Below the pieces are notes generated by a model. That model saw nothing but the letters and a program-made list of their open reading frames with translations, made no database searches and had not been told where the DNA came from. A stretch of 64,000 nucleotides of DNA from an uncultured Gammaproteobacteria bacterium (lineage in GTDB: Bacteria; Pseudomonadota; Gammaproteobacteria; GCA-002705445; GCA-002716945): NCBI GenBank assembly GCA_913048065.1, contig CAJWVG010000001.1, positions 11,225 to 75,224 on the forward strand, written 5' to 3'. Position numbers and translations under genes: made by a program. Positions 7,292-11,173 of the stretch are shown in pieces (position 1 is the stretch's first letter; the number at the start of each line of letters is the position of its first letter).

Positions 7292-8276
7292 AATTCTCTA
7301 ATAAATTTTGGTAGTCTGACTTATTATTAAATTTAGCGCCATATATTTGTATTATTTTTGAAGCAGAAAAATTAGCAAAGCTTAATGATTCTAGAAAATT
7401 TCCATCATCATATTTGTGCATAAATGAACCTAAGAACATATCTCCAGCTCCTGTAAAATCTTTAGAATCTACATCCAAACCTTCAACTTTATAAGTATCA
7501 GTCCCATCGTAACAAATAGCTCCTTTAGAGCCCAATGTTATTATATATATATCTGTAATCTCTTTGAGAAAATTCTGGGCTTGAGATAAATTTGTGGTTT
7601 CGGAAAAATTTAATGCTTCTTGTTCATTACAAAAGATTATATGTGATTTATTATTAAATAGTTTTAATAGATTATCGCGAAAATATTTTACAATATTAGG
7701 ATCCGACAGAGTTATAACTGATTTTGTATTATTTTCTTGAGCAATGGCTAATGCTTCGATACTTACATTCATTGTTTCATCTGATGTTACGAGATAACCT
7801 TCTATTAACAAATACTCCGAATCTTTGATAGATTGATTATCGATATCATCAATACTTAACAAGCTCGATGAACCAAGAAATGTATTCATTGTTCTTTCAT
7901 TATCAGGTGTTATCAATACTAAACATTCGCCACTTTTATTATTATCAAGCTTAGAAATGAATGTTTCTACACCTGATTTGTTAAGACACTCTATAAAGTT
8001 TTTTCCAGACTCATCATCAGAAACCTTTCCAGAGAAACAGACTTTATCATTATACTGAGCCATTGCAAATACAGAATTAGCAACTGAACCACCTGGTATG
8101 ATTTTTTCTGGCGGTCTCATTTTTTTCAAAGACTGATGTAATTTAGAATGTTTATCATACTCATTGAGTAACATGCATCCTTTTTCTAATTCAAGTTCCT
8201 TTAAGACTGAATCATTTACTTTATATTCATAATCTAATAGTGCATTACCAATGCCATATAATTTATATTTTTTCAT
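7281..8276 (-). CDS. PfkB-family carbohydrate/nucleoside kinase (adenosine kinase-like)
   Basis: GGSVANS and DFTGAGDMFLGSF (PfkB signature 2). Confidence 0.75.
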   Translation of the reverse strand: MKKYKLYGIGNALLDYEYKVNDSVLKELELEKGCMLLNEYDKHSKLHQSLKKMRPPEKIIPGGSVANSVFAMAQYNDKVCFSGKVSDDESGKNFIECLNKSGVETFISKLDNNKSGECLVLITPDNERTMNTFLGSSSLLSIDDIDNQSIKDSEYLLIEGYLVTSDETMNVSIEALAIAQENNTKSVITLSDPNIVKYFRDNLLKLFNNKSHIIFCNEQEALNFSETTNLSQAQNFLKEITDIYIITLGSKGAICYDGTDTYKVEGLDVDSKDFTGAGDMFLGSFMHKYDDGNFLESLSFANFSASKIIQIYGAKFNNKSDYQNLLENFKY

Positions 8277-8300
8277 ATTTTATCTCTATAAATAATCTAC

Positions 8301-8354
8301 TACCACTGATCGGACTCGAACCGATACTTTCTTGCGAAAAAGGGATTTTGAATC
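8301..8354 (-). repeat. 54-nt direct repeat: a duplicated 3' half of tRNA-Leu(CAA). It is the distal att-like end of the inserted islet.
   Basis: Identical to 11047-11100 (anticodon loop through the 3' end of the tRNA gene). Identity ends exactly where the tRNA sequence would continue. Confidence 0.85.
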
Positions 8355-8586
8355 ATTTTGAGTAAACTGTATGAATCGCAAACCCTTATATTTATTGACC
8401 TATAGAATAACACAGATAAATGTTTGTGTAATGCTTGTTCTATATTAACAAGCACCAACTTCTTTACCTGTGTATGTCATGTCGCTATAGTTTTATCCAC
8501 AGGCATGGCAGAAAATTTTAGACATGCACATCACAATTTGTTGATGTATGATTATTAAATAAAGAACTACTAAACCATCTTCATAT

Positions 8587-8595
8587 TGTTATAAT
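8587..8595 (+). promoter_or_regulatory. candidate extended -10 promoter element (TGTTATAAT) for the ORF at 8633
   Basis: TGnTATAAT lies 38 nt upstream of the ATG. The -35 region is poor. Confidence 0.25.
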
Positions 8596-8632
8596 TAAAG
8601 AATATCTATAAAAATATTAGTTTAAGCGTATC

Positions 8633-9793
8633 ATGTCTAAGAAAGTTAAAAAGAAAGTTAAAAAAGAACCTACCGCTGATGAGGTTGTCTATGAAAAAGC
8701 CCGGAAGTTCATAAAATCTCTGGGACCTGAAATAGAAGAAAAGTTTAAAAATATTAATGGAAAGACTAATCCAGTAGCTGTTCCAAAAAAACTTTATCCA
8801 GATAGAACACATAGGAGGAACAGAGCTTTAATATCTTGGAAAACGGTTAAAAAAAATAAACTCACCATTAGTCAGCTAAATACTTTCAAAAATGGTATAT
8901 GTGTCGAGTTTATAAATGATGACATCTTGAACGATATTTCTGAACTTGATGAGACGTATAAAGAGTTAAAAAATAGAATTGGTTCAGATGAAAATGTATC
9001 ATCTATTATCACTTTTCGAGTAGAGGATGGAGATCCTGGCGCTACTGTGGCAAGAGAAAGTTTTAAAAAGTTTGAAAGCTTAGAATCTGGAATTGAGTTA
9101 AAAAAAATTGAACGAGTATCAAAAAAAATTCATGTTGATGCTGGTTATGCAAGATTTCCAGGCCAAAAGAACGAGTTCTGGAAAGGAAATGCATACTATG
9201 ATATTAGTGGTGGTAAACAGAAAAAGGATTCAATAAAAAGTCATACAAGTGAAGACAAGCTAAATCTTTTTAATTCGGCTAATGAATATGCAAATGATGT
9301 GGTATGTAATGATTTATACATCACTTTATTTTATTTTTTTATACATTGTCATGATATTGATCAGAAGTTTAATGATAAGTTAGAAGATTTTACTAACATA
9401 AAACAAGAGTGTGAAGACTATCTTAGAACAAGGGATTATGATGAAAATAATCTCTATGAATATTGTATTACGAATCCATGCTTAACTTATAATAAAGGTA
9501 TCTTAACTGACCCTATAGAAGTTAAAAAAATAAGTGTTGATGATTTTAAGGAGCAAAATACTAAAAAACCAGAGCATATAGCGCTATGTCATAATGAGTC
9601 AGCTGATAAACAAATTATAAAATTTGATAAAATTAATGGGTGTATAGTATCAGCCGCGAGACCAACAAATATGTTTTGGATGTATCATACTTCTAACATG
9701 CTTCAACAAAACCATATTCTTGAAGAGTACATTACATTAGAAGCCGAAAGAGTCAATAGGAGGCATAAAATTTTCGAGAAAAACAAAGAATAA
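8633..9793 (+). CDS. hypothetical protein, 386 aa. Candidate restriction endonuclease partner of the adjacent methyltransferase.
   Basis: A long ORF with a Lys-rich N-terminus (KKVKKKVKK) that I cannot place in any family. It converges on the MTase gene with a 1-bp gap inside the tRNA-flanked islet. Confidence 0.6.
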   Translation: MSKKVKKKVKKEPTADEVVYEKARKFIKSLGPEIEEKFKNINGKTNPVAVPKKLYPDRTHRRNRALISWKTVKKNKLTISQLNTFKNGICVEFINDDILNDISELDETYKELKNRIGSDENVSSIITFRVEDGDPGATVARESFKKFESLESGIELKKIERVSKKIHVDAGYARFPGQKNEFWKGNAYYDISGGKQKKDSIKSHTSEDKLNLFNSANEYANDVVCNDLYITLFYFFIHCHDIDQKFNDKLEDFTNIKQECEDYLRTRDYDENNLYEYCITNPCLTYNKGILTDPIEVKKISVDDFKEQNTKKPEHIALCHNESADKQIIKFDKINGCIVSAARPTNMFWMYHTSNMLQQNHILEEYITLEAERVNRRHKIFEKNKE

Positions 9794-9794
9794 T

Positions 9795-11030
9795 TTATAT
9801 ATCCCATTCTTCATATTTTATCTTTTTAAACATATCACCACTTTCTTTATCTAGTTTTTTCTTAATTGCCTTTTTAAACATTTTCTTATTTAATTCTACA
9901 CCTATGCCAATTCTTCCAAGTTCGGCAGCAACTTTGGGCGCAGTAAAACTTCCAGCAAACGGGTCTAGAACCTTTTCTCCAGCATATGTAAACATTTTTA
10001 CTGCCATCTCAGGAATGTCATCAGGAAATGGTGCCGTATGACCTAATGTATTCTCACCTTTTGAGTTAATCTTAATTACAGGAGAGAATTTAATAATATC
10101 TTTTCTCCATTTATTAATTAAAGATTTATCTATCATATTTAAATCACTCTCTCTATCTATAGATTGGGTAAAGTTTGTCTTGAGTGAAAATCTCTTACCT
10201 CTATTTGATTCACTTCGTTCAGGGCAGTTATTATTTTTACATTCCCAACTTTGTAATCCTGGTTCTGTTTGAGTATTACCATTAACTTTTAGTGTCCCAC
10301 ATCTCGGGCACGGGTATCTGGTTAAGTCTAATCTATGTTTATGGAAAATGAGTATATGTTCATATGAATTTATTGGATATTGGTACATTGGAAAAGGTTT
10401 AGAGTCATTCTTATTTCTTTGACTTTGAACCTCACCTTTATCCCAGATTAAATCATCAACAAAAGTGAACCCTTCCTCTTCAAAAATTCTTGTAAAATAT
10501 GCTCCAAGCGGGATCCTTGTTTTACCCCATACCGATTTTGTTTTAGTATTTGGATTATCAAATATATCACCGACATTAAAAACCCATACTCTATGATTGT
10601 CCAAGACACGATAACTTTCTCTGATGATTTCTCTCATATCATCAAGGTATAAATTTATATTATCCCACTGAGAATAATCTCTTGCATTGTAATATGGCGG
10701 GGAAGTTACCATTAATTGTATTGATTCAGAATCCATTAATTTCAGAGCATCCAAACAATTACCCCAAATTAATTTTGTGTTAGATTTTTTATTTTTAAGA
10801 AAAGCATTAAACTTTTTATCAGATAATTTATATTCAGATTGATATTTATGTTTAATTATATCTTGGTATATATCATTGAAGATCTTTATGCAATCTTTTT
10901 GACTGTGAGGATTTTTTTTTGAAAGTTTTTTTATTAAGTCAGCATACTCTTTATCATTAAGCACTTTTTTTAAATATTTAACGCTTGTATGTATTATATT
11001 ATCAAAGTGATTATTGAATCGATTTCTCAT
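9795..11030 (-). CDS. beta-class DNA methyltransferase (N4-cytosine or N6-adenine; the SPPY motif favours N4C) with an inserted Cys4 zinc-ribbon
   Basis: Motif IV is LMVTSPPYYNARDY, N-terminal to motif I VLDPFAGSFTAPKVAAELGRIGIGVELN (the beta permutation). There is a CPRCG...CKNNNCP insert. AGGU lies 9 nt upstream of the ATG. Confidence 0.85.
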   Translation of the reverse strand: MRNRFNNHFDNIIHTSVKYLKKVLNDKEYADLIKKLSKKNPHSQKDCIKIFNDIYQDIIKHKYQSEYKLSDKKFNAFLKNKKSNTKLIWGNCLDALKLMDSESIQLMVTSPPYYNARDYSQWDNINLYLDDMREIIRESYRVLDNHRVWVFNVGDIFDNPNTKTKSVWGKTRIPLGAYFTRIFEEEGFTFVDDLIWDKGEVQSQRNKNDSKPFPMYQYPINSYEHILIFHKHRLDLTRYPCPRCGTLKVNGNTQTEPGLQSWECKNNNCPERSESNRGKRFSLKTNFTQSIDRESDLNMIDKSLINKWRKDIIKFSPVIKINSKGENTLGHTAPFPDDIPEMAVKMFTYAGEKVLDPFAGSFTAPKVAAELGRIGIGVELNKKMFKKAIKKKLDKESGDMFKKIKYEEWDI

Positions 11031-11046
11031 AATTTTTACCTAATAA

Positions 11047-11100
11047 TACCACTGATCGGACTCGAACCGATACTTTCTTGCGAAAAAGGGATTTTGAATC
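11047..11100 (-). repeat. 54-nt direct repeat copy lying inside the intact tRNA-Leu gene (the proximal att-like end)
   Basis: Perfect match to 8301-8354. Confidence 0.85.
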
Positions 11101-11130
11101 CCTCGTGTCTACCAATTCCACCACAGTGGC
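11047..11130 (-). tRNA. tRNA-Leu (anticodon CAA)
   Basis: Cloverleaf with GCCACUG acceptor stem, AAUUGGUAG D-loop, anticodon loop UUCAAAA and a long variable arm. No CCA is encoded. Confidence 0.9.
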
Positions 11131-11173
11131 ATTATAAATTTAGTGTAGCAAACTAATATTTTAGATTCTAATA

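What the first reader, a model, noticed from the sequence alone, without database searches (positions are those of the whole stretch)
8633..9793. Uncharacterised 386-aa protein tail to tail with the methyltransferase: candidate novel restriction endonuclease
This ORF ends 1 bp from the end of the MTase gene on the opposite strand. It is the only other gene inside the tRNA-flanked islet. It has its own extended -10 element (TGTTATAAT at 8587-8595). I cannot assign it to any nuclease or other family from sequence. It has a Lys-rich N-terminus, encoded by a short tandem AAAGTTAAAAAGAAAGTTAAAAAAGAA repeat. Its acidic/aromatic segments include possible but unconvincing D...(D/E)xK arrangements, for example HVDAGYARFPGQKNEFWK and TDPIEVKKISVDDFK. 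The pairing of an orphan-looking MTase with an adjacent ORF of unknown fold, in a convergent arrangement, is the classic layout of Type II R-M systems, whose endonucleases are notoriously unrecognisable. An alternative reading is a methylation-associated effector of a different kind.
Basis: inference. Interest (0 to 1): 0.75.

Follow-up and report, generated by a model that had tools for sequence, protein, structure and literature searches.

The report
Uncharacterised HNH restriction enzyme with methyltransferase
The unknown 386-residue protein is very probably the DNA-cutting half of a small, mobile restriction-modification system; it is an ordinary kind of bacterial defence, but the enzyme family has no family model or solved relative by sequence in the libraries searched.

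Summary
The ORF (8633-9793, +) is real and ends 1 nt from the convergent beta-class DNA methyltransferase gene (9795-11030, -). It matches no Pfam, NCBIfam, PADLOC or PDB sequence.

Homologues are rare: 51 loci among 185,579 species genomes. They are scattered over many phyla, bacterial and archaeal. Wherever the contig reaches far enough, an orthologous 'SPPY' methyltransferase lies within about 2.5 kb (usually directly adjacent), in either orientation.

A near-identical strain has the empty site. Here the pair is a 2,746-bp insertion into tRNA-Leu(CAA), bracketed by a 57-nt direct repeat and carrying no integrase.

It is a new member of a known kind, and interest is moderate.

The parts
8298..8354 (-). 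Left direct repeat. It is a leftover copy of the 3' half of tRNA-Leu(CAA), from the anticodon stem-loop to 3 nt past the 3' end. It is the original chromosomal copy next to the pfkB-type kinase gene.
   Evidence: the repeat finder family D1: 57 nt, 56/57 identical to 11044-11100. The alignment with the empty site L064 shows that this copy carries the chromosomal variant TACTACC. Sequence read.
8355..8632 (+). Non-coding left end of the inserted DNA, upstream of the endonuclease gene. It contains TGTTATAAT at 8587-8595, a possible but statistically unremarkable extended -10 element.
   Evidence: This stretch is absent from the empty site L064. Only short ORFs of 52 and 68 aa overlap it, and they were not examined. 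TGNTATAAT is not over-represented.
8633..9286 (+). Endonuclease gene, N-terminal domain (residues 1-218). It is an alpha/beta domain with many invariant basic and polar residues (K37, K44, R58, R61, R64, W69, N95, D97, R141, N180). It is inferred to be the DNA-recognition domain.
9287..9793 (+). Endonuclease gene, C-terminal DraIII-like module (residues about 219-386) plus the stop codon. [quoted passage not shown]
9578..9706 (+). HNH / His-Me finger core (residues 316-358). H320 (codon 9590-9592) sits at the end of strand beta-1. N346 (9668-9670) sits in the loop before the next core strand. N355 (9695-9697) sits in the core helix.
   Evidence: Secondary structure of the model: E316-320, E347-351, H352-358. 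All three residues are invariant in 55 homologues and in both paralogues of the two-R systems. A His and a helix Asn appear to be kept in the distant members P0266 and P0278, judged by eye from unaligned sequences. The His-Me finger definition is from PMC5714182.
9795..11030 (-). Cognate beta-class DNA methyltransferase (411 aa). Motif IV 'SPPY' is at residues 110-113 (10692-10703), and a Cys-rich insertion lies around residues 241-270. The start codon is 16 nt downstream of tRNA-Leu on the same strand.
   Evidence: Pfam PF01555, E 3e-32. PADLOC MTase_II, E 1.7e-85. Closest solved relatives are TTHA0409 and cytosine-N4 methyltransferases, followed by MboIIA, RsrI and PvuII. Orthologues lie next to R in the related loci. 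Sequence read.
11044..11100 (-). Right direct repeat. It forms the 3' half of the intact tRNA-Leu(CAA) and is the copy brought in by the element (variant TAATACC).
11046..11131 (-). Intact tRNA-Leu(CAA), the integration target.
   Evidence: ARAGORN. Rfam RF00005: 56.4 bits, 11047-11130.

Best explanation
The 386-aa protein is the restriction endonuclease of a two-gene Type II restriction-modification system.

- The methyltransferase is a beta-class enzyme with an 'SPPY' motif. It marks a specific DNA sequence in the host, probably as N4-methylcytosine and possibly as N6-methyladenine (inferred).
- The endonuclease reads the same sequence (inferred). The reading is most likely done with help from its conserved, basic N-terminal domain.
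- It cuts unmethylated DNA with a C-terminal His-Me finger (HNH) site. In that site H320 activates water and N355 holds the Mg2+ ion. N346 braces the loop. These roles are inferred from fold and invariance.
- By analogy with DraIII it probably acts as a homodimer here. Lineages that carry two tandem paralogues probably use a heterodimer.
- The pair is a mobile unit. In this uncultured marine gammaproteobacterium it is a 2,746-bp insertion into the 3' half of tRNA-Leu(CAA) and is absent from a near-identical strain (shown).
For: Fold
- AF2 model pLDDT 91.7, pTM 0.89, no templates.
- In the Foldseek PDB search, the three chains of DraIII entry 4l0k are the only hits with high probability.
- DraIII is an HNH enzyme in which H183 and N202 were proven by mutagenesis (PMC3996161).

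Motif
- H320 lies at the end of beta-1, N346 in the loop and N355 in the helix. This matches the His-Me definition (PMC5714182).

Linkage
- Seven of seven looked-up homologue loci from different phyla have PF01555 next door: six convergent and one co-directional.
- 45 of the 51 genome loci have an M homologue within about 2.5 kb. The other six have a contig end beside or near R.
- All partner methyltransferases with that region on the contig keep 'SPPY'.

Distribution
- The family is rare and patchy: 51 loci among 185,579 species genomes, in bacteria and archaea. There are 170 clusters among 1.84 billion representatives.

Mobility
- Empty site in L064, whose flanks are 99-100% identical.
- 57-nt direct repeat.
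- The exact R sequence is counted on 12 contigs, against 34 contigs for the flanking genes.
Against: - There is no experiment. Cleavage, sequence specificity and protection by methylation are all inferred.
- No sequence-level link to any HNH family was found. Pfam, NCBIfam and PADLOC REase models give nothing, and a family profile finds no PDB sequence even at E <= 10.
- The residue before the catalytic His is C, T, S or A, not the Asp or His that many HNH enzymes use as a second metal ligand.
- The two zinc sites of DraIII have no counterpart, since there is no invariant Cys.
- The model's coordinates could not be inspected, so the active-site geometry rests on secondary structure plus invariance.
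- The role of the N-terminal domain is a guess.
Confidence: 0.8

Rival explanations
1. It is an HNH nuclease of the same system with a different mode of cutting. It could be a Type IIS-like enzyme that binds with the N-terminal domain and cuts at a distance, or a strand-specific nicking enzyme, rather than a DraIII-like Type IIP homodimer.
For: The architecture is a separate N-terminal domain of unmatched fold plus a C-terminal catalytic module. Many relatives pair with 680-900-aa methyltransferases that contain a second, weaker methyltransferase-like segment. Seven loci carry two R paralogues, as expected for asymmetric sites.
Against: In the window's own clade there is one R and one single-domain 405-418-aa M. 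That is the usual set-up for a symmetric site. DraIII, the closest fold, is a Type IIP homodimer.
Confidence: 0.12
2. It is a homing-type HNH endonuclease that drives the spread of the cassette into the tRNA-Leu site. On this reading it is not a restriction enzyme, and the methyltransferase is unrelated cargo.
For: The islet has no integrase, yet it sits precisely in a tRNA gene. HNH domains are common in homing endonucleases (PMC5714182).
Against: In other genomes the R-M pair sits in quite different contexts, away from tRNA-Leu, yet M is present wherever the flanks could be examined. Other integrase-less cargos without this protein occupy the same tRNA-Leu site.
Confidence: 0.03
3. It is a modification-dependent (Type IV-like) nuclease, or a non-catalytic DNA-binding partner of the methyltransferase.
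For: Some HNH enzymes depend on modification, for example the SRA-HNH enzyme TagI, seen as a title and abstract. No activity data exist for this family.
Against: A nuclease that cuts methylated DNA would not stay strictly linked to a methyltransferase across phyla. The catalytic His and Asn are invariant, which argues against a non-catalytic role. No modified-base-reading domain was detected.
Confidence: 0.03

Closest known systems
DraIII (Type IIP restriction endonuclease, CACNNN^GTG; PDB 4L0K)
   Different: - Identity is only 16%, and there is no sequence or profile match.
- DraIII's two Cys/His zinc sites have no conserved counterpart.
- The His-to-Asn spacing is 35 residues with an inserted hairpin, against 19 in DraIII.
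- An extra 218-residue N-terminal domain is present.
- The partner methyltransferase has an SPPY motif.
His-Me finger / HNH restriction endonucleases in general (KpnI, Hpy99I, PacI, MnlI, HphI, SphI, NlaIII)
   Same: It shares the catalytic core and the role as the R subunit of Type II systems. Like SphI (marked with an asterisk and no Pfam model in the His-Me classification table), it forms a small family of its own.
   Different: It matches none of the Pfam HNH-clan models and none of the PADLOC Type II REase models.
R-M units inserted with long target duplication, or integrated into tRNA genes (Furuta, Abe and Kobayashi 2010, PMC2853133)
   Same: The insert holds only R and M, is shorter than 20 kb, has a flanking duplication longer than 30 bp, and has an empty site in a related genome.
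   Different: The duplicated segment is exactly the anticodon-loop-to-3'-end part of a tRNA. That is the hallmark of integrase-mediated site-specific recombination, yet the insert contains no integrase.
Two-subunit (heterodimeric) Type II enzymes such as BbvCI (own knowledge)
   Same: Seven related loci carry two tandem paralogues. Both keep the catalytic residues, and they sit next to a large methyltransferase.
   Different: The window's system has a single R gene. Heterodimer formation has not been tested.

Membership tests
Type II restriction-modification system | An endonuclease gene lies next to a DNA methyltransferase gene | tested here: met
   R 8633-9793 (+) and M 9795-11030 (-) are convergent and 1 nt apart. 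M matches PF01555 and PADLOC MTase_II.
Type II restriction-modification system | The R-M linkage is kept across unrelated genomes while other neighbours change | tested here: met
   Seven of seven looked-up loci. 45 of 51 genome loci have an M homologue within about 2.5 kb, and the rest are cut by contig ends. The pair occurs in both convergent and co-directional arrangements.
Type II restriction-modification system | Site-specific cleavage of unmethylated DNA that is blocked by the cognate methylation | not testable with these tools
   This needs biochemistry or methylome data.
His-Me finger (HNH, beta-beta-alpha-metal) nuclease superfamily | [quoted passage not shown] | tested here: met
His-Me finger (HNH, beta-beta-alpha-metal) nuclease superfamily | A nearly invariant catalytic His at the C-terminal end of the first strand | tested here: met
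   H320 is invariant in 55 of 55 sequences and in both paralogues of the two-R loci. A His appears to be kept in the distant members P0266 and P0278, judged by eye from unaligned sequences.
His-Me finger (HNH, beta-beta-alpha-metal) nuclease superfamily | A metal-binding Asn or His in the core helix, and an Asn in the connecting loop | tested here: met
   N355 (helix) and N346 (loop) are invariant in A1. The loop Asn appears to be lost in the most distant members, while the helix Asn appears to be kept, both judged by eye. Metal binding itself is inferred.
His-Me finger (HNH, beta-beta-alpha-metal) nuclease superfamily | A match to a curated HNH-clan sequence model | tested here: not met
   No Pfam or NCBIfam hit at E <= 1. 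None was found for ten distant family members either.
DraIII sequence family | Detectable sequence homology to DraIII | tested here: not met
   phmmer and a family profile against all PDB sequences gave no hit at E <= 10. Identity in the structural alignment is 16%.
DraIII sequence family | Two structural zinc sites made of Cys and His (C4/C22/H28/C32 and C157/C160/H198/C201) | tested here: not met
   The family has no invariant or nearly invariant Cys. The DraIII sites are described in PMC3996161.
   The proposed segment at residues 165-182 is gapped in most homologues shown and has low confidence. Neither the full model nor the N-terminal domain gives a significant PD-(D/E)XK match.
Integrase-mediated tRNA-targeting genomic island | A direct repeat of the tRNA 3' part at both ends, and an empty site in relatives | tested here: met
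   A 57-nt repeat runs from the anticodon stem-loop to 3 nt past the 3' end. The empty site is L064.
Integrase-mediated tRNA-targeting genomic island | An integrase gene lies inside the element | tested here: not met
   The 2,746-bp insert holds only R and M, apart from short ORFs under 70 aa that were not examined. The rest of the genome was not searched for a trans-acting integrase.
R-M insertion with long target duplication (PMC2853133 criteria) | R and M both lie in the insert, the insert is under 20 kb, the duplication exceeds 30 bp, and no other mobility gene is present | tested here: met
   All four criteria are met. The caveat is that the repeat is tRNA-derived, which the same paper treats as a sign of site-specific recombination.

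The most novel reading that the evidence does not exclude
The N-terminal 218-residue domain may be a DNA-recognition fold with no solved relative. The family would then offer a natural series running from one R gene with a single-domain methyltransferase to two R paralogues with a large two-segment methyltransferase. Such a series would show how a symmetric-site HNH restriction enzyme becomes an asymmetric-site heterodimer. Separately, the tRNA-Leu site may be a hotspot where integrase-less defence cassettes are exchanged in a streamlined marine bacterium, served by a recombinase encoded elsewhere.
Probability: 0.35. Interest if true: 0.5.

Novelty: new member of a known kind. Interest (0 to 1): 0.38.

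Why it matters
It assigns a function and candidate catalytic residues to a protein family that carries only 'hypothetical protein' labels in public databases. The family comprises about 170 clusters, in bacteria and archaea from oceans and guts, including cultured Streptococcus, Staphylococcus and Mycoplasmopsis strains.

Practical value:
- It is a candidate source of a new restriction specificity.
- The N-terminal domain, which lacks any structural match, is a target for structure determination with DNA.

Biological value:
- It is a clean example of a 2.7-kb R-M-only cassette that is polymorphic in a natural marine population.
- The cassette sits in a tRNA hotspot that carries different defence-like cargo in sister strains.

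It does not change any concept. Type II enzymes with HNH sites and mobile R-M units are both well known.

Tried and rejected
- Sequence searches of R against Pfam, NCBIfam, PADLOC and PDB gave nothing.
- PHROGs gave only a weak 'carboxypeptidase' hit (E 0.002, residues 298-370). I did not rely on it.
- tblastn of R against the plasmid and phage collections found no match. There is therefore no annotated relative to borrow a name from.
- The Aciduliprofundum homologue P0021 was not on record for context look-up.
- The N-terminal domain modelled alone found no fold match.
- The 208-aa distant hit P0285 was tested as a possible bridge to DraIII. It turned out to be a sulfotransferase-like protein with an HNH-like tail and no DraIII link.
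- A second tRNA on the left flank was sought with ARAGORN and Rfam and not found. Only the fragment exists.
- GC content does not mark the islet: it is about 30%, like the flanks.
- The promoter reading of TGTTATAAT was rejected as no better than chance.
- A literature search for the Aciduliprofundum locus tag found nothing.
- I did not attempt to predict the recognition sequence from site avoidance. The window is short and the system is polymorphic in the population.

Full report
**1. The observation**

The six-frame ORF list shows a 386-aa ORF at 8633-9793 (+). A 411-aa ORF lies at 9795-11030 (-), so the two stop codons are one base apart.

The minus-strand protein is a DNA methyltransferase. 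It matches Pfam PF01555 N6_N4_Mtase (E 3e-32) and PADLOC Type II MTase models (best E 1.7e-85).

The 386-aa protein matches nothing in Pfam, NCBIfam, PADLOC or the PDB sequence set. Its only PHROGs hit is weak (E 0.002) and was not used.

The Lys-rich N-terminus and its short DNA repeat are in the sequence. Homologues do not share that tail.

- **tRNA flanks.** ARAGORN and Rfam find only one tRNA near the islet: tRNA-Leu(CAA) at 11046-11131 (-) by ARAGORN, 11047-11130 by Rfam.
- **Promoter.** TGTTATAAT is at 8587-8595. The pattern TGNTATAAT occurs 13 times in the window against 11.2 expected, and promoter-like sites are not enriched in the region.
- **PD-(D/E)XK motif.** The candidate stretch HVDAGYARF... 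lies in a low-confidence part of the model and is gapped in most homologues shown.

**2. The protein**

*Family.* A search of 5.8 billion proteins gave 144 relatives of 350-400 aa. Every source name shown is 'hypothetical protein' or a bare gene-call string, and none has a precomputed Pfam domain.

In an alignment of 55 relatives (35-57% identity), the C-terminus carries a strong invariant pattern:
- H320, in the context x-x-H-N-E;
- N346, in A-R-P-T-N-x-F-W;
- S354-N355-M356-x-Q358-Q359.

*Model and fold search.* AlphaFold2 with this alignment and no templates gave a confident model (mean pLDDT 91.7, pTM 0.89).

- In the Foldseek PDB search, the three chains of DraIII entry 4l0k were the only hits with high probability.

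[quoted passage not shown] H183 is the general base and N202 is the Mg2+ ligand, and both were confirmed by mutagenesis (PMC3996161).

*Fit to the His-Me finger definition.* The published definition has three parts: a catalytic His at the C-terminal end of the first strand, an Asn in the connecting loop, and a His or Asn in the core helix that binds the metal (PMC5714182).

The model fits this exactly:
- H320 ends strand 316-320.
- N346 precedes strand 347-351.
- N355 lies in helix 352-358.

By eye, without an alignment, a His and a helix Asn appear to be retained in the most distant family members found.

The DraIII resemblance therefore belongs to the C-terminal ~165 residues. These cover essentially a whole DraIII-like module: a helical sub-domain plus the HNH core.

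The N-terminal alpha/beta domain has no solved relative detectable this way. It is rich in invariant Lys and Arg residues. I infer, without proof, that it contributes to DNA recognition.

*Differences from DraIII.*
- There is no sequence or profile similarity.
- There is no conserved Cys to build DraIII's two zinc sites.
- The His-to-Asn spacing is 35 residues rather than 19.
- An extra N-terminal domain is present.

**3. Genomic linkage**

Seven context look-ups of homologues all showed a PF01555 methyltransferase directly adjacent. Six were convergent and one was co-directional. All other neighbours differed. Three of the loci have a source name: Acidimicrobiia, Saccharibacteria and Nanoarchaeota. 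Two further loci sit in an element that carries PcfJ/PcfK conjugation genes. The last two are unnamed.

A scan of one genome for each of 185,579 species found 51 loci. They include:
- marine Actinomarina and OCS155;
- Bacteroidota;
- many Clostridia and Bacilli;
- Mycoplasmopsis primatum;
- Staphylococcus pettenkoferi;
- Jeotgalicoccus meleagridis;
- Streptococcus salivarius and S. infantis;
- Patescibacteria lineages;
- Treponema;
- Alpha- and Gammaproteobacteria;
- a nanoarchaeon.

tblastn with the window's methyltransferase found a homologue within about 2.5 kb of R in 45 of the 51 genome loci. In the other six, a contig end lies beside or near R. Every partner with that region on the contig keeps a single 'SPPY' motif IV.

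An exhaustive profile search of 1.84 billion representative proteins found only 170 clusters. Most keep the full two-domain length.

A rare, patchily distributed gene that travels with one particular methyltransferase is the signature of a restriction-modification pair.

The methyltransferase is more conserved than R within the window's clade, at about 70% against about 52% identity.

Its closest solved relatives are TTHA0409 and two cytosine-N4 methyltransferases, followed by MboIIA, RsrI and PvuII. From my own knowledge, SPPY is the usual motif IV of N4-cytosine enzymes. I therefore consider m4C the likelier product, but this is not established.

**4. The islet is a mobile insertion**

A metagenome scan with the neighbouring pfkB-type kinase recovered L064. 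Its flanking genes are 99-100% identical to the window. There the order is pyrF, kinase, tRNA-Leu, a 147-aa ORF and queA, with neither R nor M.

Alignment of the two junctions with this empty site shows a 57-nt direct repeat, 8298-8354 and 11044-11100, identical at 56 of 57 positions.

- On the tRNA strand the repeat runs from the anticodon stem-loop to three bases past the 3' end.
- The single mismatch is the first base after the discriminator A.
- The left copy carries the chromosomal variant.
- The right copy completes the intact tRNA and carries the other variant.

The tRNA's 3' half therefore came in with the element. This is typical of integration into tRNA genes.

The inserted DNA is 2,746 bp. 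It holds only R, its 278-nt upstream region and M. There is no integrase.

It meets the published criteria for 'R-M insertion with long target duplication'. The same paper notes that an anticodon-loop-to-3'-end repeat points to site-specific recombination (PMC2853133). I cannot decide between the two possible histories: a recombinase acting in trans, or loss of the integrase followed by spread through flanking homology.

*Further observations on the site.*
- GC content does not distinguish the insert.
- All exact copies of R found in public assemblies lie in this same context, in several marine metagenome assemblies, some of them from Tara Oceans.
- The exact R and M sequences are counted on 12 contigs, against 34 for the flanking kinase and Tgt.
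- The system is therefore polymorphic in the population. The host is an uncultured marine gammaproteobacterium with about 30% GC.
- After integration the M start codon lies 16 nt downstream of tRNA-Leu on the same strand, much as the kinase does at the empty site. Read-through transcription of M from the tRNA promoter is therefore possible (inference).

**5. Mechanism and rivals**

*Best explanation (confidence about 0.8).* This is a Type II R-M system.
- M methylates a specific site.
- R recognises the same site and cleaves it when unmethylated.
- Cleavage uses an HNH centre in which H320 is the general base and N355 is the metal ligand.
- R probably acts as a dimer, like DraIII.

What is shown: the fold, the invariant residues, the linkage and the insertion. 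What is inferred: catalysis, specificity, oligomeric state and the role of the N-terminal domain.

*Weak points.*
- There is no sequence-level tie to any HNH family.
- There is no Asp or His immediately before the catalytic His.
- I had no access to the model's coordinates to check the geometry.

*Rivals.*
- A Type IIS-like or nicking mode (0.12). This is a variant of the same idea. It is suggested by the two-domain build and by the relatives with two R genes.
- A homing endonuclease that moves the cassette (0.03). This conflicts with the constant methyltransferase linkage in unrelated contexts.
- A modification-dependent or non-catalytic protein (0.03). This conflicts with the linkage and with the invariant active-site residues.

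**6. Comparison with what is known, and novelty**

It works like an HNH Type II restriction endonuclease, and DraIII is its nearest structural neighbour. It is not a member of the DraIII sequence family, because the homology and zinc-site tests were not met. It also matches no curated HNH model.

It is best described as an uncharacterised family within the His-Me finger restriction enzymes, with an added N-terminal domain of unmatched fold.

REBASE could not be consulted, so prior listing there, or even characterisation of an isoschizomer, cannot be excluded.

I rate it a new member of a known kind, with interest 0.38. It is well supported and useful for annotation and enzyme discovery, but a specialist would not be surprised.

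Noticed in passing
L100:1-3737, L101:1-5202, L086:2700-6100 and L093:1-1900 (junction equivalent to window 8277-11131): In sister strains, other DNA lies between tRNA-Leu(CAA) and the kinase gene. L101 has about 5 kb with an MT-A70 and an N6_N4 methyltransferase plus four (sic: three) unknown ORFs of 548, 264 and 160 aa. L100 has about 3.5 kb with a T5orf172 / PADLOC PDC-S57 protein and two unknown ORFs, bracketed by an intact tRNA and a tRNA fragment. L086 and L093 each have a MORN-repeat protein there. No ORF tested matched an integrase family. The site looks like a hotspot for small defence-like cassettes.
   Followed up: partly
L017, L020, L028, L031, L036, L055 (Streptococcus salivarius KSS6), L056 (S. 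infantis SO): Seven related loci carry two tandem full-length paralogues of the endonuclease. In the six pairs aligned they are 40-60% identical to each other, and both keep H320, E322, N346 and N355. They sit next to a 700-900-aa methyltransferase. This suggests a two-subunit enzyme for an asymmetric site.
   Followed up: partly
Related loci L004-L062 (methyltransferase ORFs): Outside the window's clade, the partner methyltransferases are 600-900 aa. The SPPY catalytic domain is C-terminal. The N-terminal extension shows a second, weaker stretch of methyltransferase homology that lacks SPPY. It could be a degenerate duplicate or a recognition module.
   Followed up: no
L059:1804-2929 and L054:1273-2344: The endonuclease gene is frameshifted in two MAGs. 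In L059 the shift lies in an A-run just before the catalytic His, and the methyltransferase next to it is intact. This is either decay of R that leaves an orphan methyltransferase, or an assembly error.
   Followed up: partly
L001:3553-8353 (Acidimicrobiia MAG): Here the R-M pair sits about 2.3 kb downstream of a tRNA-Arg gene. A SHOCT protein and a ScoMcrA_N + HNH_2 (Type IV-like) nuclease lie between the tRNA and R, and large helicase genes follow M. It looks like a small defence island.
   Followed up: no
P0285 (208 aa) and P0202 (668 aa): Two odd relatives turned up. P0285 joins a sulfotransferase-like N-terminus to the family's HNH motif region. P0202 has the family's N-terminal domain followed by about 490 unrelated residues. 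These may be domain shuffling or gene-calling artefacts.
   Followed up: partly
window 11028-11047 and 8276-8300 (- strand): Both the methyltransferase here and the kinase at the empty site start 16-24 nt downstream of the tRNA-Leu 3' end on the same strand. The insertion therefore puts M where the kinase used to be relative to the tRNA. It leaves the kinase behind a tRNA half-copy. The effect on kinase expression is unknown.
   Followed up: no
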